64,000 nt of DNA from Candidatus Woesearchaeota archaeon (GCA_018302545.1 JAGVZM010000002.1:2198-66197), one strand, 5' to 3'. Positions 2,843 through 57,527 are shown, counted from the first letter of the stretch. The notes: generated by a model from the letters alone, not told the origin. Program-made: numbers and translations.

Positions 2843-4307
2843 AACAGAGGTTATTCTTAGTATAACTCAAACCATTTATACCATAGAATTCTTTGGTTTC
2901 ATCAGAAACATAAATAAAATTAATATTATACTTCCTCAATAAATCTAAAGCTAATGCTTCACTAGGAGTAGTATAAATAAGTTCTATATCCCTATATCTA
3001 ACAACTGGATCAGGAGCAACTGCAAAATTAGTGTCTATCACATTTTTCCTCATGCCATAATAATTTATTAGATTACCCTCTTCAAAATTTCCCAAGATAA
3101 CATGCTCAGGTAGAGTATTAATACTTAACCACTTAATTTGCTTTACTTTATTATCTGTTAATTGTCGAGAATTATTAGCAGAATCATAAGAAGGAATAAA
3201 AGATAAAAAAATAAAAGAGAATATTAAAACAACTACGAATACTGTTCTCAATCTAATAAACTTAAAATTACTAAAATAGTCATAAACCAAAGTAAAAGTA
3301 GAAGAAGAAAACACACATAGAACTAAACCTAAAAAAATTAAACCAATAGATATTGATAAAAATCTAAAAAAAAGCAATATTAAAACTGAAAGACCAAAAG
3401 AAGCAAGTAAATAAGCAAGTTTCTTCTTTTCTCTTATAACACTAACATAAACCCCAAAAGCTCCCAAAACTAGAGGTAAAAGACCCAATCCAAAGATTAA
3501 ATCTGTAGAGGAAAATTGTCTAAAGAGATCATTAAAAATATTAGAAGGGATATTATTCCAGAGCAAGCCTAATCCATGTTGCAAAATCATTTTTTTATAT
3601 ATTAAAAGTTGTAATAATAAGATTAGAAAAGAAGAGAAGAAAATTGCTTCCTTTTTAATCCTAGTGGAAGATAAAGCTCCTCCAGATAATAAAAAAAGAT
3701 ACAAAAAACCCATAAAAACAAATAGTAGAGAAGAAGGATGTAATAAAGGCAACAAAAAGGAACCTAGAACAAAAAACCAAAGATATTTCTTATCATCCAA
3801 TCTAGTCAAACTATATACCATAAGTAATAAAAGTGGCAGAATAAATGTGTAAATAGAAAGATTATTTAGAGTTTCATAAAATATTAAAGGATAAAACCCA
3901 AAAAGCAAAGAAGAGAATAAAGCACCAAAAGAATTACCGCTTATATCTTTAGATACTAAATAAACCACAAAAACAGTTAAAGAAATTGCTAACTCAGGAA
4001 TCAACTTCAACATAAAAACAGAACCAAAACTAAATAACGCCATTAAAATATGAAATAAATGAGGATAGATTACATCAATACCACCATAACTCAAAGGATC
4101 ATAAATCATTACAGTTCCTTTTTCTAATATGTGTTCAATATACTTCAAGTGAAAATAAGCATCATCGGTATTGAAATATTCTACCTGAAAAGCAAAGTAC
4201 ATTCTAAATGCTAAAATAAATAAAAAGATAAGTAAAAGTAAAATATGTTCAACTTTTATCTTCTTCATTAGTTTTCTCCCCAGAGGATATATTTTCACTA
4301 TTAACAT
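2799..4307 (-). CDS. Polytopic membrane protein (paralog-like of 1394..2842; putative GT-C family)
   Basis: 502-aa ORF with many TM helices and a soluble C-terminal domain. SYGG motif near the N-terminus. The true start may be the internal Met (MKKIKVEH). Confidence 0.4.
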   Translation of the reverse strand: MLIVKIYPLGRKLMKKIKVEHILLLLIFLFILAFRMYFAFQVEYFNTDDAYFHLKYIEHILEKGTVMIYDPLSYGGIDVIYPHLFHILMALFSFGSVFMLKLIPELAISLTVFVVYLVSKDISGNSFGALFSSLLFGFYPLIFYETLNNLSIYTFILPLLLLMVYSLTRLDDKKYLWFFVLGSFLLPLLHPSSLLFVFMGFLYLFLLSGGALSSTRIKKEAIFFSSFLILLLQLLIYKKMILQHGLGLLWNNIPSNIFNDLFRQFSSTDLIFGLGLLPLVLGAFGVYVSVIREKKKLAYLLASFGLSVLILLFFRFLSISIGLIFLGLVLCVFSSSTFTLVYDYFSNFKFIRLRTVFVVVLIFSFIFLSFIPSYDSANNSRQLTDNKVKQIKWLSINTLPEHVILGNFEEGNLINYYGMRKNVIDTNFAVAPDPVVRYRDIELIYTTPSEALALDLLRKYNINFIYVSDETKEFYGINGLSYTKNNLCFESFREGRYYFVHC

Positions 4308-4812
4308 TTTCTGTTTTTTCTTCCAATACTTTATCCATTTTAATTTTTAATTGATTTTCAACTATGTCAAAATAATCAAAAAATTTGCTAGTTAATTTAA
4401 TTATTTTAGATCTACCAAAAGGTTCAGAAACAATAAAGTCTAATTCTTTCAAAAGTTTTATATGATCATAAGCTCCATTTCCCCTTATTTTTATTATTTC
4501 GCTTTGTAATGCTGGATTCTTATATGCAATAACTGCTAAAGTCTCTTGTGTAGCCCCATCAAATTCAGCTTCTTGTAATAATGATTGAGTCAGGTGAAGA
4601 TATTCTTTTCTTATATTCAATTTCCATTTATCTACCTGTTGGGTTATCTCCAAGGAACAATTCTTATTTTTGTAATCTTTCACTAATTCAAACAAAACTT
4701 CTTTCAAATAACCAACACTAGCAATTCCAGTCATCTTACTAATCTCATCTAATCCTATAAATCTACCAGTAGTAAACAAGATAGCCTCTACTTTATTTTT
4801 ATCTTCCTGCAT
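4249..4812 (-). CDS. scpB: Segregation and condensation protein B (ScpB)-like
   Basis: 187 aa. N-terminal EAILFTTGRFIGLDEISKMTG winged-helix signature typical of ScpB. Acidic C-terminal tail. Confidence 0.55.
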   Translation of the reverse strand: MQEDKNKVEAILFTTGRFIGLDEISKMTGIASVGYLKEVLFELVKDYKNKNCSLEITQQVDKWKLNIRKEYLHLTQSLLQEAEFDGATQETLAVIAYKNPALQSEIIKIRGNGAYDHIKLLKELDFIVSEPFGRSKIIKLTSKFFDYFDIVENQLKIKMDKVLEEKTENVNSENISSGEKTNEEDKS

Positions 4813-4859: not shown

Positions 4860-5255
4860 CTACCTAAAAGAATTAGGAGAACAAACTCTAAAGACAACAC
4901 CCTCCTCTCCAACAGACCTAACAAAGATATTAATTCCATTAATATTTTCAACACTATTAACATCTATATTCCCTAAAACCCCATTAATACCAAATGTAAC
5001 AACATCTGAAGTAAAGTCCTGCAAAATTATTGTTCTACCAACATTAGGAGCATTTAATGCAGAATTTCTTAAATTAGATCTAAAATCAACCCCATCACAA
5101 AGTTCAAAATCACTAGAATTGTTTTCACTTCCAACATCCTTAACAACATTTCCTGTAATAAGATCTCCACTTAAAATTTTATTTCCATAGAACCCTATAC
5201 TAAAAACTAATAAAACAATTACAATTCCAAAAACAGACCAAACCACTTTTTGCAT
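4860..5255 (-). CDS. Hypothetical secreted or membrane-anchored protein
   Basis: 131 aa with an N-terminal hydrophobic helix (VVWSVFGIVIVLLVFSIGF). No recognisable domain. Confidence 0.3.
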   Translation of the reverse strand: MQKVVWSVFGIVIVLLVFSIGFYGNKILSGDLITGNVVKDVGSENNSSDFELCDGVDFRSNLRNSALNAPNVGRTIILQDFTSDVVTFGINGVLGNIDVNSVENINGINIFVRSVGEEGVVFRVCSPNSFR

Positions 5256-5291: not shown

Positions 5292-6389
5292 CTAAAGTTC
5301 AACAGAATACCTTAGTATAGCTGCAACACCACCAAGTTCTTTTAATTGGGATCCTTCTTTAGTATCAAGACTAATAATAAATACATTAGTTCCCGTTTCA
5401 TTAGCTTTTTCTTCATATTCCTCAAGTTTAGAAAAACTCTCACTTAATAATAACTTATCAACTGCCCCATATTCTAAAGATTTTAAAACATCGGCAGGAC
5501 CATAAACCGCCTTATCTGAATTTTTAGATATTAGGGTAAAAAATTCATTAACAATCTTTTTTTCCTTTACAACTTCAGCTTCAGATAAAACATCCTGAGA
5601 TCTTTCAACTAATTCATTTAAACCTTCTTCATCAGTATAAGAGATATCCTTAATTGCTAAAACTTTCTTTCTTAATTCAGCATGAAGATGATTAGAATTA
5701 AAAAAAGTTTCTTTTGTTGGACCCGGACCACCTATTAATATACCCTTAAGATCCTTCCCTATTGCAGCAAATTCAATATTCGCAACATCAGAAACTCTCT
5801 TATAAAACTCATTAGCTGCCTCTTCTCTCAATCTTGCATACCTTTGTTGGGACCAGCCACCAACTTTCAATTTTCCAGGAACAGTAGAACTAAAATCTCT
5901 AATTACTTGTATGCTTTTCCCTTTTAATAAACCAAGTGTAGCTTCTCTATTATCCAAAACAAGCAATCCGTATATTTCATTTATTTGAATCATAGAATCC
6001 AAAGGATCTAAAATAAAAGTTTGATCACATCTATACATCCTAATGTTAACAGGAACAGGAGGCTCAACACTCCAGACTTGTATATCTTGTTTTCCTTCCT
6101 GCTCTGAAACATTACCAGAAAAAGCAGCCAATCCATTAGAAGGAGTAACCTTAAATAATCTCAAATGTCTTATCATCCTTTCTAAAGCATCTTGTACATT
6201 CTGTCTAGTAGTCTTGTCTTTTATATTAGAAGCAGTTCCTTGTTCCTGTGCCAAATGTTGAATTATTTTATTAAGATCATATCCTATAGGAATATAAACT
6301 GTAATAAGCTCAGTATGTCTAGCTCTATATTTTTTAAGTTCATTAACAAATTTCCTTAATTTAAATTGATTTTTTGTGTCCATATTCAA
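5292..6389 (-). CDS. prf1: Peptide chain release factor aRF1 (eRF1 family) homolog with atypical GGW in place of GGQ
   Basis: 365 aa. Domain 1 has GTASNIKD (NIKS-like) and YRCDQTF (YxCxxxF). Domain 2 has KVGGWSQQRYARLR aligned to the eRF1 GGQ loop (RGGQSALRFARLR). Read directly from the DNA. Confidence 0.75.
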   Translation of the reverse strand: MNMDTKNQFKLRKFVNELKKYRARHTELITVYIPIGYDLNKIIQHLAQEQGTASNIKDKTTRQNVQDALERMIRHLRLFKVTPSNGLAAFSGNVSEQEGKQDIQVWSVEPPVPVNIRMYRCDQTFILDPLDSMIQINEIYGLLVLDNREATLGLLKGKSIQVIRDFSSTVPGKLKVGGWSQQRYARLREEAANEFYKRVSDVANIEFAAIGKDLKGILIGGPGPTKETFFNSNHLHAELRKKVLAIKDISYTDEEGLNELVERSQDVLSEAEVVKEKKIVNEFFTLISKNSDKAVYGPADVLKSLEYGAVDKLLLSESFSKLEEYEEKANETGTNVFIISLDTKEGSQLKELGGVAAILRYSVEL

Positions 6390-6403: not shown

Positions 6404-8788
6404 CTAAAACTCTATTTTAAGTTCCTTTCCATATTTTATTTCTTTGGCTTGCGTAACTGCCTTTAAGTCTTTATCTAATAATTTAAGACTTGTATAACAA
6501 TTCAAAAGTTTTAAAGGTTCCTTTAAAGATTTACCTTTAGAAGACTTCTCCTTCCTAACAAAACTAACTACTTCTACAAATTCATTCCCAATTTTCTCAG
6601 ATTTCTTATCAACTAAATTTTTATCAAAAATAGGCCAGGTACTAATATGCAAACTTTTATCCTTCTCTTTATCCTTAAATATGTCTTGATATAACTGTTC
6701 TGTAATGTAAGGCATAATAGGAGCAAATAATTTTAAGATATTAAGTAAGCAAGTATATAAAGTAAATAAAGAACTATCACGTTCTTTACTCTTACCTTCA
6801 CTATAAATCCTATATTTAACAAACTCTAAGTAATTATCACAAAAATCTTTCCAAAAGAATATATCAATCGCAGCTTTAGCTTTACTATATTCATAAACTT
6901 CAAATGCTTGAGTGCAAATTTGAATAGTATTATTCAATTTATTCAAGATCCATTTATCTATAATTTCTAACTCAACTTTTTTCAATTTGTAATTATCCAA
7001 ATGTTGTCTTGCAAAATTAAAAGAGTTCCATAATTTAGTAACTGTTCTTTGTCCAGTACTCAATTCCTTCTCCAAGTATCTCAAATCATCTCCTAATTTA
7101 GAACCTGCTGCCCAAAATCTTAAAGCATCTGCACCGTATTTATCTAAAACTTCTGCAGGTTCTATAGCATTACCTTTACTCTTGTGCATAGCTTGCCCTT
7201 TAGGATCCAAAACATGCCCAGAAATAACTATATCTTTCCAAGGAAGTTTGTTATGATGATATAAACCTTTAACAATTGTATAAAAAGCCCAGGTTCTTAT
7301 TATATCATGTGCCTGAGGTCTTAAACTACAAGGATACATTTTATCAAAATCAAAATCATAAACATTATCCTTTACCCAATTTAAAATAATTTGAGGAGTT
7401 ACACTAGATGTAGCCCAAGTATCCATTACATCCTTTTCTGCTTCAAATTCATTATTACCACATTTACATTTAGTCTTAGGCTTATCATTTAAAGGATCAA
7501 CAGGAAGTTGTTTTTCATCAGCAATAATAACTTCAGAACAGTTCTTACAATACCAAACCGGAAAAGGAACTCCAAAATGTCTCTGCCTAGATATACACCA
7601 GTCCCATTGCAAACCTTGAATCCAATGCTCATATCTTAACCTCATAAATTGGGGATACCAATTTATTTTTTTACCTTCATCAATAAACTTCTTTTTATTA
7701 TCCAAAACTTTAATGAACCATTGTTTTGTACTTAAGAATTCTATTTCTGTTCCGCATCTTTCATGTACATTAACAACTTGTTTAAGAGGTTCTTGTTTAA
7801 CTAAAACTCCTGCCTCTTTCCAATCTTCTAAAACTAGTTCTCTAGCCTCTTTTACACTCATACCTTTATACTTTCCTGCTTTATCATTCAATTTTCCATC
7901 TTTATCAAGGATATGTATAACCTCTAATTCTGGATGTTTCCTTACAAATTGAAGATCATGAATATCTCCATAAGGACACCAATATACTGCACCTGTTCCA
8001 AATTCAATTTTAGAGAAGTCATCAGCTATTATTGGAACCTGAATATTACTAATAGGAATTGTTGCTTTCTTACCAATTAAATTCTTATATCTTTTATCCT
8101 CTGGATGAACAGAAATAGCAATACAAGCCATCATAAGTTCAGGCCTTGTAGTAGCAAAAGTTATGTTGCTTCCCCCCTCAACTTCAACTTTTACATAATT
8201 TAATTTAGATTCTCTTTCTTTGTCTTCCAAATCAGCTTGAGCTATAGCTGTTTGACAATGAACACACCACATAGTAGCGTCCTCACTTTGATAAACTAAT
8301 TTTTTCTTGAATAGATCAATGAAAGATTTTTGAGAAGTCCTTATGCAATGCTCATCTATCGTAGAATAAGTTTTAGAAAAATCACAGCTCATACCCACTA
8401 ATTTCCAATCATTAATAAAATCAGGTTTAATTTCCTCAATAGTCTTTTCACATAATTCTACAAATTCATGTCTACTCATTTTTGTAGACCTAACGTTCTT
8501 TAATTTCTCAACTAATTTCTCTGTAGGTAAACCATTATCATCTGTACCAAAAGGAAAAAAAACATTATCTCCTTTCATTCTATGATATCTAACAACAATA
8601 TCTTGTTGTGTATAACTAAAAGCATGTCCTAAATGCATCTTACCAGATACAGTAGGAGGAGGAGTATCTACAACATAAGGTTTAGCTTTAGATTTTTTAT
8701 TAAATACATAAACCTTTTCTTTTTCCCAAAATTCTCTCCATTTCTTTTCTACATCCTTAAAAACATATTTATTGTTACTATTCATTTT
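6404..8788 (-). CDS. valS: Valine--tRNA ligase
   Basis: Class I aaRS. PPPTVSGKMHLGHAFSY (HIGH) motif and MHKSKGN (KMSKS) motif. About 795 aa from the likely start MNSNNKYVF. The ORF track extends to 8866, but those extra 26 codons look non-native. Confidence 0.85.
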   Translation of the reverse strand, partial: KMNSNNKYVFKDVEKKWREFWEKEKVYVFNKKSKAKPYVVDTPPPTVSGKMHLGHAFSYTQQDIVVRYHRMKGDNVFFPFGTDDNGLPTEKLVEKLKNVRSTKMSRHEFVELCEKTIEEIKPDFINDWKLVGMSCDFSKTYSTIDEHCIRTSQKSFIDLFKKKLVYQSEDATMWCVHCQTAIAQADLEDKERESKLNYVKVEVEGGSNITFATTRPELMMACIAISVHPEDKRYKNLIGKKATIPISNIQVPIIADDFSKIEFGTGAVYWCPYGDIHDLQFVRKHPELEVIHILDKDGKLNDKAGKYKGMSVKEARELVLEDWKEAGVLVKQEPLKQVVNVHERCGTEIEFLSTKQWFIKVLDNKKKFIDEGKKINWYPQFMRLRYEHWIQGLQWDWCISRQRHFGVPFPVWYCKNCSEVIIADEKQLPVDPLNDKPKTKCKCGNNEFEAEKDVMDTWATSSVTPQIILNWVKDNVYDFDFDKMYPCSLRPQAHDIIRTWAFYTIVKGLYHHNKLPWKDIVISGHVLDPKGQAMHKSKGNAIEPAEVLDKYGADALRFWAAGSKLGDDLRYLEKELSTGQRTVTKLWNSFNFARQHLDNYKLKKVELEIIDKWILNKLNNTIQICTQAFEVYEYSKAKAAIDIFFWKDFCDNYLEFVKYRIYSEGKSKERDSSLFTLYTCLLNILKLFAPIMPYITEQLYQDIFKDKEKDKSLHISTWPIFDKNLVDKKSEKIGNEFVEVVSFVRKEKSSKGKSLKEPLKLLNCYTSLKLLDKDLKAVTQAKEIKYGKELKIEF

Positions 8789-9011
8789 ATCAACTCCAAA
8801 TAAGATGGTATATAAAATATAATGTAAATGCAATAGCCTAAAGGCTATGCCACCACTACAGAACAAACTAATAAAAACAATACAACACTGAAATTATTGT
8901 TTCTAATCATAAAAAAAAGATAATTAAAAGATATTAAAACCTTTCGATTGAAAACATTTTTAGATTTTAAATAAAAAAGACATAAAAAACTATAATGAAA
9001 AACAGCAAAAA

Positions 9012-32089: not shown

Positions 32090-33397
32090 TTAATGACGGT
32101 TTGATTTCTTCTTAACATTACTAGAAGCCATTTTAAGCATTTTTAAAGCATAATTAACAGGATTCTTGCATTTACTACAAATACCGTCATCACATTTAAT
32201 GCTCATAGTTTTATAATAACTAGGGTTATCACAATTAGGAGGCAAAACCAATTTCTTCTGCCTTTTAAACCAACTTATCTGAGCCTTAACATAACCTTCT
32301 CTTAAAGGTTCAGCATTTCTTTTATTCCACTCAAGCATAAACTTCTCTATATCTTCTAGATTCCAACCAACATTTTGTAAAAAGTTAACTAAAATAAAAA
32401 TGCCTCTCTTCCTTCCATCTTCCTCTACGCCTTGCATTAATTTTAAAATACAAGGAGGAAAATAATCAACCTTTATTGGAACCTTAGGAGCCTCAAACTT
32501 TCTAGTAATTGTTATTTGTTTCTCTTCAATATAATTAGTTTTTCTAGCCCAATCAAAAGCTTGTATCAACAAATTTTTAGCTTCATCCTTTTCAACATTC
32601 TCTGAATCTAAAAATTTCAATCCAAATTTGACATTATCTATCTTTGCCTGTCTAATGTCAAAATCCTTAATAGTCTTCAAAGGTATACTAACTAACCCAG
32701 ATTTTTCATTTATACTATAAGCACATCTAAACAAATGTCTACTAGATATTAAAACACTATCGATATCTACTAACTTAAAAGGATCCAATTTATTCTCTTT
32801 AATAACATCTTCAACTTTTTTTCCAACACTCTTAGCAGCATCTTCTACTGTATGAGTCTCTAAAATCTTAGCACTTAAATGTTCTTTAATCATATTCTTA
32901 AGATATTCAGAAATAACTCTCACACCATCAGGAAAATAATCTTTTATATTAACATTATTAACATTAGAAGGGAAAGCTTCAAAAGGAATACCAATATGGA
33001 ATCCACGATTACCTGAATATTTTATAGAAAAATTCTTAACATCATTAAACCTTAAAGCATCTTCTAAAAATTCAGCGCACATAATACTAAAGTTTAAATT
33101 TTTACTATCCAAATCCAAGATACAACTCCAACCAATCCTTAAGTTATCTAATTCTTTCTTACTCAAACCACTTTCAAGCATCATAGGATCTTTCCAAATT
33201 TCCTCACTAACATGAAAAGAAGTCATACCTTGTTTAACTAAATCATTAATATCTCCCTGAAAATTAACAATCTCTGGTCTTTTTCCCCTAATATCTCCAA
33301 ACCAAGCCTGAACCTCTCTATTTTGAGATAGTCTCATCAATTCTTTTTGAACTTCGTTTTGAGAATAATACTCTTTTATTTTTTTAAGATCAGACAT
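32090..33397 (-). CDS. priS: DNA primase catalytic subunit PriS with Cys-rich C-terminal extension (possibly fused PriL-CTD-like module)
   Basis: ILDLDS (DxD metal-binding) and YSGNRGFHIGIPFEAFP (SGxRGxH) primase motifs. C-terminal approximately 100 aa carry Cys in PPCILK, PNCDNP and KCDDGICSKCKNP. Confidence 0.65.
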   Translation of the reverse strand: MSDLKKIKEYYSQNEVQKELMRLSQNREVQAWFGDIRGKRPEIVNFQGDINDLVKQGMTSFHVSEEIWKDPMMLESGLSKKELDNLRIGWSCILDLDSKNLNFSIMCAEFLEDALRFNDVKNFSIKYSGNRGFHIGIPFEAFPSNVNNVNIKDYFPDGVRVISEYLKNMIKEHLSAKILETHTVEDAAKSVGKKVEDVIKENKLDPFKLVDIDSVLISSRHLFRCAYSINEKSGLVSIPLKTIKDFDIRQAKIDNVKFGLKFLDSENVEKDEAKNLLIQAFDWARKTNYIEEKQITITRKFEAPKVPIKVDYFPPCILKLMQGVEEDGRKRGIFILVNFLQNVGWNLEDIEKFMLEWNKRNAEPLREGYVKAQISWFKRQKKLVLPPNCDNPSYYKTMSIKCDDGICSKCKNPVNYALKMLKMASSNVKKKSNRH

Positions 33398-55337: not shown

Positions 55338-57527
55338 ATGATAAAAAACAACAAACAGATAGAAGAAGGAACTTTTAAATATCTAGAACTATCAAAGAAA
55401 AAAATGAAGAAAAAGTTTTATATCACAACACCAATTTACTATGTAAATGATAAACCTCATGTTGGTCATGCATATACTACAATAATAGCAGATATTCTAG
55501 CAAGGTGGCATAGATTAAAACAAGAAGATGTATTTTTCCTAACTGGATTAGATGAAAACGGACAAAAAACAGTCGAAGCTTCTATAAAGTTCGGATTTAA
55601 AAGTCCACAAGCATGGTGTGATTATATAGCAGAAGAATATCTAAAAACATGGAAAAATCTAAACATAAGCAATGATGATTTTATAAGAACAACAGAAGAA
55701 AGACACCATAAACTTTCTATAGAGTTCACAAAAAAAGTTCAAAAAAAAGGAGACATCTATAAAGGAAACTATATAGGATTATATTGTGAAGGTTGTGAAG
55801 CATACATAACAGAATCAGAATTAACAAAAGAAGGTTTTTGTCCAAATCACAATAAAAAACCAAAGGAGTTACATGAAGAAAATTACTTTTTCAAATTAAG
55901 TAAATATGATAAACAATTACTAGAACATATAGAGAATAATCCAAGTTTCATACAACCCGAGTTCAGGAAAAAAGAAATTATTAATTTCATAAAGCAAGGA
56001 TTAAAAGATATAAGTATCTCTAGGCAGAGTTTAACATGGGGAATTCCTTTTCCTGGAGATGAATCTCAAAGAATTTATGTTTGGTTTGATGCATTATTAA
56101 ATTATTTGCACCCAAAGGAATATTGGCCTGCAAATATACAAATGATGGGTAAAGAAATAATAAAATTTCATTGTATAATCTGGCCGGCAATGCTTCTCTC
56201 AGCCGGATATAAACTTCCAAAAAAAGTATTTGCTCATGGATGGTTAACAATAAATGGAGAAAAGATGTCTAAATCTTTAGGCAATGCTATAGACCCAAAT
56301 CACCTTACTAAAACATTTGGAACAGATGCATTAAGATACTATTATGCAAGAGAAGTACCTTTAGGAAATGATGGAGATTTTTCAGAAAAACAATTAGTAG
56401 CTAGATTAAACAATGAGCTAGCAAATGAACTAGGCAACTTAATTTCAAGAACCTTAACTTTAATAGAAAAAAAATTAAATTCAGAAATAAAAAAAGATAA
56501 GGTAGATAAAACATTATTCAAAGATTTAAAGGTTAAACAAATCGACAAGTTCATCCAAGATATAGAACCCCATAATGCAATTGCATTAATTTTTCATTTT
56601 ATACATTCATGTAATCAATATATTAGCGAAAAAGAGCCATGGAACATCAATAAAGAAAATGAATTAAATAAAATACTCTATAATTTAACAGATGCTATTA
56701 GAATAATATCAATATTGCTCTATTCATTTCTACCAGAAACATGTGAAAAGATTCATAAACAATTATCTTTAGACACTAAAAAATTAAGTTTAGCTCAGGC
56801 TATTCCTGGAATATTAACAACAACAAAAATAAACAAAGGAGAAATTTTATTCCAAAAAGTAATTTTCAAAGAAACAAAAGATGTTTTCAAAAATCCTAAA
56901 TGTTATGTAACTCCAGAAGTGCAAAGATTAGGAATTAAAGTTAAATTTGCAGAATTAATCAACCTAAATATAAAAAAGAAACATATGGGTTTAGAAAAAT
57001 TAAAATCTGAAATAAAGAAAAGTTTCAAACCGAACATAAGAGTACTAAAAGGATATGATAATTACTCTAGATTATTAAACATAGAAGAAGGACAATGCTC
57101 AGTCTACAATTTAATGGATTTAGTTGAAGAAAACGGAAAACTTCCAACAATAAATACAGCTGTAGATAGTTATAATATTATATCTCTTGCTAAAAGCCTT
57201 GTTGTAGGTGCTCATGATAGAGAACATGTAAAGGGACCAGTGAGGTTTGATATTTTTAAAGGAAATGAATTATACATCCCATTATTCACAAATGAAAAAA
57301 AATCAGTTAATAAAGGAGAATTTGGTTGTATTGATGATGAAAAAGTTCTTTGTAGACTAGATATTAAACAAGGCGATCAAACAAAGGTGACAGAAAAAAC
57401 AAAGAATATTATTCTTTATGTACAAGGAAATGAATATACTTCAGAAGAATATTTGCAGGAAGCAATAGAAGAAATTTGTAAGTTAATGATTAGATTTTGT
57501 GATGGAGAATATAAAATATTAAATTAA
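55338..57527 (+). CDS. metG: Methionine--tRNA ligase with C-terminal B3/4-like domain
   Basis: HIGH-type TPIYYVNDKPHVGHAYT and KMSKSLGN motifs. Zinc knuckle (CEGCEAY...CPNH). C-terminal approximately 200 aa contain PTINTAVDSYNIISLAKSLVVGAHD...VRFDIFKG, resembling the B3/4 tRNA-binding/editing domain. GGAGG SD-like sequence 8 nt upstream. Confidence 0.85.
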   Translation: MIKNNKQIEEGTFKYLELSKKKMKKKFYITTPIYYVNDKPHVGHAYTTIIADILARWHRLKQEDVFFLTGLDENGQKTVEASIKFGFKSPQAWCDYIAEEYLKTWKNLNISNDDFIRTTEERHHKLSIEFTKKVQKKGDIYKGNYIGLYCEGCEAYITESELTKEGFCPNHNKKPKELHEENYFFKLSKYDKQLLEHIENNPSFIQPEFRKKEIINFIKQGLKDISISRQSLTWGIPFPGDESQRIYVWFDALLNYLHPKEYWPANIQMMGKEIIKFHCIIWPAMLLSAGYKLPKKVFAHGWLTINGEKMSKSLGNAIDPNHLTKTFGTDALRYYYAREVPLGNDGDFSEKQLVARLNNELANELGNLISRTLTLIEKKLNSEIKKDKVDKTLFKDLKVKQIDKFIQDIEPHNAIALIFHFIHSCNQYISEKEPWNINKENELNKILYNLTDAIRIISILLYSFLPETCEKIHKQLSLDTKKLSLAQAIPGILTTTKINKGEILFQKVIFKETKDVFKNPKCYVTPEVQRLGIKVKFAELINLNIKKKHMGLEKLKSEIKKSFKPNIRVLKGYDNYSRLLNIEEGQCSVYNLMDLVEENGKLPTINTAVDSYNIISLAKSLVVGAHDREHVKGPVRFDIFKGNELYIPLFTNEKKSVNKGEFGCIDDEKVLCRLDIKQGDQTKVTEKTKNIILYVQGNEYTSEEYLQEAIEEICKLMIRFCDGEYKILN

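What the first reader, a model, noticed from the sequence alone, without database searches (positions are those of the whole stretch)
5292..6389. Class-I release factor homolog with GGW instead of the universal GGQ, and NIKD instead of NIKS
Domain 1 is clearly eRF1/aRF1-type (GTASNIKD, YRCDQTF). The segment that aligns to the peptidyl-hydrolase loop reads KVGGWSQQRYARLR, against RGGQSALRFARLR in eRF1. The Gln of GGQ is essential for peptide release. A Trp here suggests one of three things. It could be a release-inactive paralog with Pelota-like rescue or regulatory function. It could be an unusual catalytic solution, for example the nearby Gln residues substituting. It could be a lineage-specific oddity. 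All three stop codons terminate conserved genes in this window, so stop-codon reassignment is not supported.
Basis: seen in the sequence. Interest (0 to 1): 0.6.

Follow-up and report, generated by a model that had tools for sequence, protein, structure and literature searches.

The report
Archaeal release factor lacking the GGQ glutamine
This is the normal translation-termination factor (aRF1) of a tiny DPANN archaeon, but the supposedly universal catalytic glutamine of its GGQ motif is replaced by tryptophan and a glutamine two residues later is always kept, a pattern that recurs in many related lineages and challenges the idea that GGQ is invariant.

Summary
The ORF at 5292..6389 (- strand; likely ATG at 6383) encodes a full three-domain aRF1. 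It scores 432.7 bits on TIGR03676 (cutoff 234.7) and reads GGW (TGG, 5853..5855) exactly where solved aRF1/eRF1 structures have GGQ. It is not a sequencing error. All sampled relatives with 67-100% identity, from independent assemblies, carry GGW or GGF.

It is not an extra paralog by position. It sits in the same block (ValRS, aRF1, ScpB and following genes) as GGQ-bearing aRF1 in related genomes. It is as conserved as GGQ copies and keeps NIK, YxCxxxF and ILRY.

Across 262 relatives, 64 lack the Gln (W, F, M, rarely A or S). They fall in about 17 separate clades. Of these, 62 of 64 have Gln at +2 (GGxSQ) and most have Tyr at +5. Only 67 of 198 GGQ sequences have Gln at +2.

All three stop codons are used in the window. 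NIKD is simply typical of this lineage.

Best reading: a functional, probably sole, release factor with an alternative catalytic loop, GG[W/F/M]SQxRY. That motif is already described for Vms1-like aVLRF1/acVLRF1 proteins.

Two things could not be tested: whether a second aRF1 lies elsewhere in the genome, and any biochemistry. This is a new variant of a known kind, and I found no report of it.

The parts
5292..6389 (-). aRF1 gene. It is 365 aa from TTG at 6389; the more likely start is ATG at 6383, giving 363 aa. The stop is TAG at 5292..5294.
   Evidence: Pfam eRF1_1/2/3 all match; TIGR03676 scores 432.7 bits against a cutoff of 234.7; 100% identical to NCBI 'peptide chain release factor aRF-1 [Ca. 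Woesearchaeota archaeon]'
5838..5861 (-). Catalytic-loop segment GGWSQQRY (residues 177-184 counted from TTG). The variant motif is GG-aromatic-S-Q-x-R-Y.
5853..5855 (-). TGG codon for Trp179, in the position of the universal Gln of GGQ
5847..5849 (-). CAA codon for Gln181 (+2). It is kept in 62 of 64 non-Gln variants and is the candidate substitute catalytic Gln.
5838..5840 (-). TAT codon for Tyr184 (+5). It co-varies with loss of the Gln: Tyr in 57 of 63 variants, against 43 of 198 GGQ sequences.
6216..6236 (-). TASNIKD, the stop-codon recognition motif. NIKD is the lineage-typical form of NIKS.
6015..6035 (-). YRCDQTF, the YxCxxxF stop-codon recognition motif
5307..5321 (-). AILRY, the C-terminal GILRY-type motif of domain 3, the site that interacts with the class-II factor / aEF1-alpha
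   Evidence: PMC2613156
6404..8785 (-). Valyl-tRNA synthetase immediately upstream. It is the conserved syntenic partner of aRF1 in both GGQ and GGW/F genomes.
4249..4812 (-). ScpB, the conserved downstream member of the syntenic block

Best explanation
The gene is this Woesearchaeota/Nanoarchaeia-type DPANN archaeon's ordinary, omnipotent class-I release factor aRF1, and most probably its only one. It carries an alternative peptidyl-tRNA-hydrolysis loop, GG[W/F/M]-S-Q-x-R-Y, in place of GGQ-S-x-x-R-F.

Shown:
- Trp occupies the exact position of the GGQ glutamine.
- The variant is inherited and conserved, and it recurs in many lineages.
- It is the positional ortholog of GGQ aRF1.
- The rest of the protein is under unchanged constraint.
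- Loss of the Gln is tightly coupled to Gln at +2 and Tyr at +5.

Inferred:
- Domain 1 still reads all three stop codons.
- The two glycines still deliver the loop into the peptidyl-transferase centre.
- The backbone NH at the Trp position still coordinates the hydrolytic water or leaving group.
- The bulky hydrophobic side chain takes over the packing role of (methyl-)Gln.
- The amide of Gln181 (+2) supplies the polar function, as in the GGxSQ loops of aVLRF1/acVLRF1.
- Because G-Q-X3-R is destroyed, Mtq2-type methylation of the loop is predicted to be lost.
For: - Family and architecture.
- Not an error: the 23 GGW and 14 GGF sequences among the 120 nearest homologs come from NCBI, ENA, JGI and Logan assemblies, and GGQ first appears at 66% identity or less.
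- Breadth: 64 of 262 relatives are non-Gln, in about 17 clades on a tree built with the loop masked. A second lineage of 8 sequences (60-100% identity, NIKS, GGWSQ[KR]RF) has GGQSSV as its next relatives, and 112 euryarchaeal controls are all GGQ.
- Coupling: Gln at +2 is present in 62 of 64 variants and in all 17 clades, while their GGQ sisters carry A, S, H or Q there. Tyr at +5 is present in 13 of 17 clades. The most informative co-varying columns (-5, -3, +2, +5) all lie in the loop.
- Orthology: the ten-gene block starting ValRS, aRF1, ScpB, ~490 aa, ~475 aa, GT2 is shared by the window, L001-L010, L017 and L018 (GGW/F), L020 (a separate GGF clade) and L011/L016 (GGQ, on a 502-kb contig).
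- Constraint: NIK 100/96/96%, Y-C-F 100%, GG 100%. Root-to-tip distance is 0.289 against 0.299. aRF1 is more conserved than the neighbouring ValRS.
- All three stop codons are in use.
- Literature: the GGxSQ motif in aVLRF1/acVLRF1 (PMC6514570). The Gln main chain is critical and the side chain has a packing and water-selecting role (PMC4691834). [quoted passage not shown]
Against: - No biochemistry was done.
- The rest of the genome could not be scanned, so a second, canonical aRF1 cannot be excluded. None lies in the 64-kb window or within 10 kb in the other loci.
- In model organisms the Gln is treated as essential, and a yeast Q182E eRF1 was toxic even beside the wild type (PMC12440015).
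- Two sequences have neither Gln: P0129 (GGWSANRY) and spliced P0243 (GGS-SAGRY). The +2 Gln is therefore not absolutely required, or those genes are not functional.
- The NJ tree is crude, so the number of independent origins is approximate.
- GGQSQ is common in canonical aRF1 (72 of 112 controls), so Gln at +2 may be a permissive background rather than a catalytic replacement.
Confidence: 0.65

Rival explanations
1. The factor is an active release factor, but catalysis relies only on the loop backbone plus a hydrophobic plug (W/F/M) that shapes the water pocket. The conserved Gln at +2 and Tyr at +5 are structural rRNA contacts that stabilise the altered loop. They are not a relocated catalytic Gln.
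For: The literature assigns the chemistry to the main-chain amide and gives the side chain a packing role. Only large hydrophobic residues are common at the position (W 37, F 19, M 4). GGQSQ is already frequent in canonical aRF1. P0129 and P0243 lack both Gln residues.
Against: The near-absolute coupling to Gln at +2 (62 of 64; all 17 clades) is stronger than expected for a mere contact residue. A, S and H are tolerated at that position when GGQ is present. The GGxSQ precedent in aVLRF1/acVLRF1 also argues against it.
Confidence: 0.2
2. The factor is a release-inactive homolog (Pelota-like rescue or regulatory factor, or a stop-codon binder that recruits another hydrolase), and a canonical GGQ aRF1 is encoded elsewhere in the genome.
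For: The Gln is regarded as essential.
Against: The variant occupies the same syntenic slot as GGQ aRF1 in relatives, and no GGQ copy was seen in any W/F locus. The pelota model scores 120 bits against a cutoff of 178, while the aRF1 model scores 433 against 235. The stop-codon motifs and the ILRY motif are intact, and there is no rate acceleration. The residue set is restricted and the loop co-varies, which is not the pattern of relaxed drift. A stop-codon binder unable to release peptide would be dominant-negative. GGQ and non-GGQ sequences interleave at shallow depth in the tree instead of forming two parallel paralog clades.
Confidence: 0.1
3. The substitution is a by-product of the intein that targets this exact site. 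The residue is the -1 extein residue of an intein inserted between GG[Q/W] and Ser. Selection for efficient splicing favoured W/F/M, or homing co-converted a 'VGGW...SQxRY' cassette into new lineages, and the residue stayed after the intein was lost. This explains the origin and is compatible with the best explanation.
For: Inteins sit exactly after the GGx residue in 63 or more of 262 relatives, some with LAGLIDADG endonuclease domains. Non-Gln is somewhat commoner with an intein (about 24 of 64) than without (about 40 of 198). All co-varying columns lie within 5 residues of the insertion site.
Against: On a tree of the intein splicing domains, Q and non-Q hosts are intermixed (10 changes among 63), so no single intein lineage carries the variant. 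Eleven of the 17 non-Gln clades contain no intein. Serine codons next to the site differ (TCY against AGY) within the variant group.
Confidence: 0.25
4. The finding is an artefact: a sequencing or assembly error, a pseudogene, or a sign of stop-codon reassignment.
For: None beyond prior expectation that GGQ is invariant.
Against: The identical protein occurs on three contigs, and GGW/GGF occurs in dozens of independent assemblies. The ORF is intact and highly conserved. Getting from CAG to TGG or TTY needs 2-3 nucleotide changes. All three stop codons terminate ORFs, coding density is 0.89, and there is no suppressor tRNA in the window. TGG encodes the conserved Trp of the ValRS WCISRQ motif.
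Confidence: 0.01

Closest known systems
Canonical archaeal aRF1 (e.g. Aeropyrum pernix aRF1, PDB 3AGK/3VMF; 4AF1)
   Same: Three domains eRF1_1/2/3. The short domain 3 lacks the eukaryote-type insertion (365 aa against 373 aa in A. pernix). It has the NIK(S/D), YxCxxxF and ILRY motifs and a gap-free alignment of the loop. A. pernix even reads GGQSQRRY, which already has Gln at +2 and Tyr at +5.
   Different: Trp replaces the Gln of GGQ, which destroys the G-Q-X3-R methylation context.
aVLRF1 / acVLRF1 (Vms1-like release factor families of archaea and actinobacteria/chloroflexi; Burroughs & Aravind 2019)
   Same: Same aeRF1 RNase-H-fold catalytic domain. Their catalytic loop is described as GGxSQ, which is exactly the window's GGWSQ. 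Pfam acVLRF1 matches at 49.6 bits.
   Different: Those families lack the stop-codon-reading eRF1_1 domain and act (or are predicted to act) in rescue. The window protein has the full aRF1 architecture, scores much higher on eRF1_2 (132.7 bits) and sits in the aRF1 locus.
Pelota / Dom34
   Same: Homologous domains 2 and 3; no catalytic Gln.
   Different: Pelota lacks the whole GGQ loop tip, NIKS and YxCxxxF, and has an Sm-like N domain. The window protein keeps all of these. TIGR00111 scores 120 bits, below its 178-bit cutoff.
Eukaryotic eRF1 (human 1DT9; ribosome-bound 3JAG etc.), including the NIKD form in Tetrahymena eRF1
   Same: Homologous over residues 9-319 (E 2e-55). NIKD also occurs in Tetrahymena eRF1-1.
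   Different: eRF1 always has GGQ. In Tetrahymena, NIKD accompanies a variant code, whereas here all three stops are used and NIKD is shared with GGQ relatives.

Membership tests
aRF1/eRF1 class-I release factor | Three-domain architecture eRF1_1 + eRF1_2 + eRF1_3, and a score above the curated equivalog cutoff | tested here: met
   Pfam scores 61.2 / 132.7 / 86.4 bits. TIGR03676 scores 432.7 bits against a cutoff of 234.7. PDB aRF1 match at E 7.7e-80.
aRF1/eRF1 class-I release factor | Stop-codon recognition motifs TASNIKS and YxCxxxF in domain 1 | tested here: met
   TASNIKD and YRCDQTF are present. The Ser of NIKS is known to vary. NIK and Y-C-F are 96-100% conserved in the variants.
aRF1/eRF1 class-I release factor | GGQ tripeptide at the tip of domain 2 | tested here: not met
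   The protein reads GGW, aligned gap-free under GGQ, and has no GGQ elsewhere. The Gly-Gly pair and Ser at +1 are 100% conserved.
aRF1/eRF1 class-I release factor | C-terminal GILRY-type motif for the class-II factor / aEF1-alpha | tested here: met
   AILRY at residues 357-361
aRF1/eRF1 class-I release factor | Orthology: the same genomic slot as canonical aRF1 in related genomes | tested here: met
   The block starting ValRS, aRF1, ScpB is shared with GGQ loci L011/L016, L004 and L013.
aRF1/eRF1 class-I release factor | Single copy: the only class-I release factor of the genome | not testable with these tools
   No second copy lies in the 64-kb window.
aRF1/eRF1 class-I release factor | Stop-codon-dependent peptidyl-tRNA hydrolysis on the ribosome | not testable with these tools
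   This needs an in vitro release assay.
Pelota/Dom34 | Score above the TIGR00111 cutoff, an Sm-like N domain, and absence of NIKS, YxCxxxF and the GGQ loop tip | tested here: not met
   120.4 bits against a cutoff of 177.65, matching only domains 2-3. The NIKD and YxCxxxF motifs and a full-length loop are present.
aVLRF1 / acVLRF1 | GGxSQ catalytic loop | tested here: met
   GGWSQ; the motif as described in PMC6514570
aVLRF1 / acVLRF1 | VLRF1 architecture without the eRF1_1 stop-codon domain, with the VLRF1 model as the best-scoring model | tested here: not met
   eRF1_1 is present. eRF1_2 scores 132.7 bits, more than acVLRF1 at 49.6 bits. NF041024 scores 43 bits against a cutoff of 125.

The most novel reading that the evidence does not exclude
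GGQ is not universal. Whole lineages of DPANN archaea terminate every protein with a sole aRF1 whose catalytic glutamine has been replaced by Trp, Phe or Met. The amide function has moved two residues downstream (GG-hydrophobic-S-Q-x-R-Y). This solution evolved or spread repeatedly (about 17 clades) and converges on the loop of Vms1-like factors, probably together with loss of Mtq2 methylation. It would be a natural experiment on how the ribosome hydrolyses peptidyl-tRNA.
Probability: 0.55. Interest if true: 0.85.

Novelty: new variant of a known kind. Interest (0 to 1): 0.72.

Why it matters
[quoted passage not shown] Here nature seems to have done the experiment repeatedly. Orthologous, strongly constrained aRF1 genes carry W, F or M at that position, always with a compensating Gln at +2 and usually Tyr at +5. 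That gives a concrete, testable alternative loop. It could be grafted into Haloferax or yeast factors and used in release and nucleophile-partitioning assays.

It also predicts co-loss of Mtq2. It links canonical termination factors to the GGxSQ loops of Vms1-like rescue factors. Practically, it warns that annotation or 'catalytically dead' calls based on the presence of GGQ will misjudge DPANN release factors.

Tried and rejected
1. Whole-genome paralog test. It served for synteny but could not show whether a second aRF1 exists.
2. Mtq2 by synteny. A ~198-aa MTS methyltransferase is conserved 6 kb downstream in both GGQ and GGW genomes and looked like a candidate Gln methyltransferase. It carries NPPF and matches PH1948/METTL5 (E 1e-43 / 1e-30). 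It is therefore an rRNA m6A enzyme and irrelevant. No NPPY-type methyltransferase is in the window.
3. 'The loop cassette spreads with the intein.' The intein tree mixes Q and non-Q hosts, so this is not supported as the sole cause.
4. hmmalign of intein-containing sequences produced spurious GGK/GGI/GGY states. These were corrected by explicit intein excision.
5. Primary papers on Gln mutants (Shaw & Green 2007, Korostelev 2008, Seit-Nebi 2001) are not held. I relied on how held papers summarise them.
6. Taxon names for the deep variants: the cluster look-up returned none.
7. Literature searches for GGW/GGF aRF1, DPANN GGQ variation or an aRF1 intein found nothing relevant.
8. Structure prediction was not run. 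The tool returns no coordinates and the free GGQ loop is flexible, so it could not address catalysis.

Full report
**What is there.** The window is AT-rich (about 29% GC). At 5292..6389 on the minus strand it holds an intact ORF of 365 aa, counted from a TTG. An ATG two codons downstream, at 6383, gives the 363-aa protein that NCBI holds as 'peptide chain release factor aRF-1 [Candidatus Woesearchaeota archaeon]', which is 100% identical.

All three eRF1 domains are found by Pfam: eRF1_1 at 61 bits, eRF1_2 at 133 bits and eRF1_3 at 86 bits. The NCBIfam aRF1 equivalog TIGR03676 scores 432.7 bits against a cutoff of 234.7, while the pelota model stays below its cutoff (120 against 178 bits).

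The DNA reads ggt ggc tgg tcc caa caa agg tat, which is GGWSQQRY, and the Trp codon TGG lies at 5853..5855. TASNIKD lies at 6216..6236 and YRCDQTF at 6015..6035. There is no GGQ anywhere in the protein.

phmmer against all PDB chains aligns the loop without a gap. Trp sits under the Gln of GGQ in a haloarchaeal-type aRF1 (4af1, E 7.7e-80), in Aeropyrum pernix aRF1 (3agk, which reads GGQSQRRY) and in human eRF1.

**Not an error, and not unique.** Among the 120 best homologs in the 5.8-billion-protein collection:
- 23 read GGW. Ten of these carry an intein directly after the W.
- 14 read GGF.
- 83 read GGQ.

Every sampled sequence with 67% identity or more to the window protein is GGW or GGF, and GGQ first appears at 66%. 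These sequences come from NCBI, ENA, JGI and Logan assemblies, and the identical protein lies on three contigs.

NIKD occurs in 104 of the 120, including the GGQ sequences. The literature already notes that the Ser of NIKS varies to L, N or D (PMC2613156). NIKD is therefore ordinary for this lineage.

**How widespread.** I searched 1.84 billion cluster representatives, excised the inteins and aligned everything to one profile. That gave 262 sequences with a readable loop.
- 198 are GGQ and 64 are not. The non-Gln residues are mostly W and F, some M, two A and one S.
- On a neighbour-joining tree built with the loop columns masked, the non-Gln sequences fall into 17 separate clades, which parsimony counts as 17 changes. 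The tree is crude, so I take this as 'many', not as an exact count.
- A second search, seeded with a distant variant (P0201, NIKS, 398 aa), found a clade of eight sequences at 60-100% identity that all read GGWSQ[KR]RF.
- That clade's next relatives, one of them named Diapherotrites, read GGQSSVRF.
- The remaining 112 hits (Methanobrevibacter, Pyrococcus, Thermococcaceae, Thermoplasmata, Hadarchaeum and others) are all GGQ.

The variant is thus confined to DPANN-type lineages but recurs within them.

**The change is coordinated, not decay.**
- Of the 64 non-Gln sequences, 62 have Gln two residues later (GGxSQ). Only 67 of the 198 GGQ sequences do, the rest carrying A or S there.
- Tyr follows the conserved Arg (+5) in 57 of 63 variants, against 43 of 198 GGQ sequences.
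- All 17 clades have Gln at +2 and 13 have Tyr at +5. Their GGQ sister groups have A, S, H or Q at +2 and mostly Phe at +5.
- The four alignment columns most informative about the Gln state are -5, +5, -3 and +2. All lie inside the loop.
- Elsewhere the variants are at least as conserved as GGQ sequences: NIK 100/96/96%, Y-C-F 100%, Gly-Gly 100%, Ser at +1 100% and Arg at +4 100%.
- Mean root-to-tip distance is 0.289 for variants and 0.299 for GGQ sequences.
- In pairwise comparisons aRF1 is more conserved than the adjacent valyl-tRNA synthetase.

Relaxed selection or a new function would predict random residues and faster evolution, and neither is seen.

**It is the ortholog of canonical aRF1.** In the window the gene order is ValRS (6404..8785), aRF1, a 131-aa ORF, ScpB (4249..4812), two ~490-aa proteins and a GT2 glycosyltransferase.

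The same block, continuing with a 219-aa protein, an HTH protein and a METTL5-like methyltransferase, surrounds several other aRF1 genes:
- GGW or GGF aRF1 in L001-L010, L017 and L018.
- GGF aRF1 from a separate clade of the tree in L020.
- GGQ aRF1 in L011/L016, on a 502-kb contig.

In L004 and L013 (GGQ) only the ValRS-aRF1 adjacency is conserved.

No second aRF1 or pelota lies in the 64-kb window, by tblastn and by a family HMM run on all ORFs. I could not scan the rest of the genome. 'Sole aRF1' is therefore inferred from positional orthology and small DPANN genomes, not shown.

**Genetic code.** Seventy non-overlapping ORFs of 100 aa or more cover 89% of the window under the standard code. 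They end in TAA (38), TGA (22) and TAG (10). aRF1 and ValRS themselves end in TAG. The only RNA gene found is tRNA-Ile(GAT). TGG encodes the conserved Trp of the ValRS WCISRQ motif. An omnipotent release factor is therefore needed, and there is no sign of reassignment.

**Mechanism (inference).**
- Held papers summarise that the two glycines adopt glycine-only conformations. They also report that the main-chain amide of the Gln is critical (Gln to Pro abolishes release) and that the side chain packs the pocket and selects water as the nucleophile (PMC4691834; PMC5799190).
- The titles of Seit-Nebi et al. [quoted passage not shown]
- Burroughs and Aravind describe the catalytic loop of the aVLRF1 and acVLRF1 families as GGxSQ (PMC6514570). 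That is exactly the motif found here.
- I therefore propose that the Gly-Gly hinge and backbone chemistry are unchanged. The W/F/M side chain would provide the packing normally given by (methyl-)Gln, and Gln181 would provide the amide.
- The rival sub-model is backbone plus hydrophobic plug, with Gln181 and Tyr184 acting only as structural contacts. It remains open.
- Three facts keep it open. GGQSQ is common in canonical aRF1. Two sequences lack both Gln residues (P0129 GGWSANRY and spliced P0243 GGS-SAGRY). In yeast a Q182E eRF1 is toxic.
- The eukaryotic Mtq2 ortholog HEMK2 prefers G-Q-X3-R (PMC10804810), and Mtq2 methylates archaeal aRF1 (PMC6144793). The variant loop destroys that context, which predicts loss of methylation and perhaps of Mtq2. 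This could not be tested here.

**The intein.** In at least 63 of the 262 relatives an intein is inserted exactly between GG[Q/W/F/M] and the following Ser.
- Most near relatives have a ~140-aa mini-intein.
- L006 and L007, and many cluster representatives, carry 420-570-aa versions with LAGLIDADG motifs.
- The variable residue is thus the -1 extein residue.
- Non-Gln states are somewhat enriched among intein-bearing genes, and all co-varying columns lie within five residues of the insertion site.
- Adaptation to splicing, or co-conversion during homing, could have promoted the change. But the intein tree mixes Q and non-Q hosts and 11 of 17 variant clades have no intein. I keep this as a possible origin story only.

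**Comparison and verdict.** The protein works like aRF1, and by sequence, architecture and synteny it is aRF1. It nevertheless fails one textbook defining feature of class-I release factors, the GGQ tripeptide.
- It is not Pelota: the score is below cutoff, and it has the full loop and the stop-codon motifs.
- It is not a VLRF1 family member: it has the eRF1_1 domain, and the eRF1_2 model scores far higher.
- It does share the GGxSQ loop of the VLRF1 families.
- Four literature searches found no report of GGW or GGF aRF1, or of an aRF1 intein. The library is limited to open-access papers.

I rate it a new variant of a known kind, with interest 0.72. A specialist would be surprised that an orthologous, constrained release factor lacks the 'universal' Gln, and the variant makes the long-running question of the Gln's role directly testable. 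The main uncertainties are the unscanned remainder of the genomes and the absence of biochemistry.

Noticed in passing
L006 5995-8358; L007 5950-8355; L008 5992-7521; L009 5989-8172; L010 3376-4899 (aRF1 genes of related genomes): An intein is inserted exactly between GG[Q/W/F/M] and the next Ser of aRF1. Some are mini-inteins of ~140 aa and some are full-size (~420-570 aa) with LAGLIDADG motifs. It is present in 63 or more of 262 relatives, and some proteins appear to carry two inteins. I found no paper describing an aRF1 intein.
   Followed up: partly
P0129 (JGI, 48-kb contig) and P0243 (898 aa, intein-containing): These are two aRF1 homologs with no Gln at either position: GGWSANRY, and after splicing GGS-SAGRY. 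They are exceptions to the GGxSQ rule and I have no explanation for them.
   Followed up: partly
window 4860-5255 (-): A 131-aa ORF with an N-terminal hydrophobic segment and no family match lies between aRF1 and ScpB. It is present here and in the identical ENA contig L015, but absent from the same slot in L001, L011, L017 and L018.
   Followed up: partly
L016 16944-17537; L017 16917-17519; L018 16961-17557 (just beyond the window's left end in the syntenic block): A conserved ~198-aa methyltransferase with an NPPF motif, homologous to PH1948 and human METTL5 (an rRNA m6A enzyme), belongs to the same gene block as aRF1. It is not Mtq2.
   Followed up: yes
window 55338-57527 (+): A methionyl-tRNA synthetase of 729 aa carries a C-terminal B3_4 domain, the domain known from the PheRS beta subunit, instead of the usual tRNA_bind appendage. 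This is an unusual fusion.
   Followed up: no
window 32090-33397 (-): A single 435-aa protein matches both the small (PriS) and large (PriL) primase subunit families. It is a fused primase, as reported from memory for Nanoarchaeum.
   Followed up: no
L017 1-1915 (-): The Cbf5/TruB pseudouridine synthase of a related GGW genome also carries an intein with a LAGLIDADG domain, so these genomes are rich in inteins in translation genes.
   Followed up: no
window 5847-5855 and loci L001-L020: The canonical Gln of GGQ is encoded by CAG in all GGQ loci examined, while the +2 Gln is CAA. The neighbouring Ser switches between TCY and AGY codon families among close relatives.
   Followed up: partly
window 8785-8866 (-): The mechanical ORF for ValRS starts at a TTG at 8866 (820 aa). 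Homologs (786-802 aa) and the family model support the ATG at 8785 (793 aa).
   Followed up: yes
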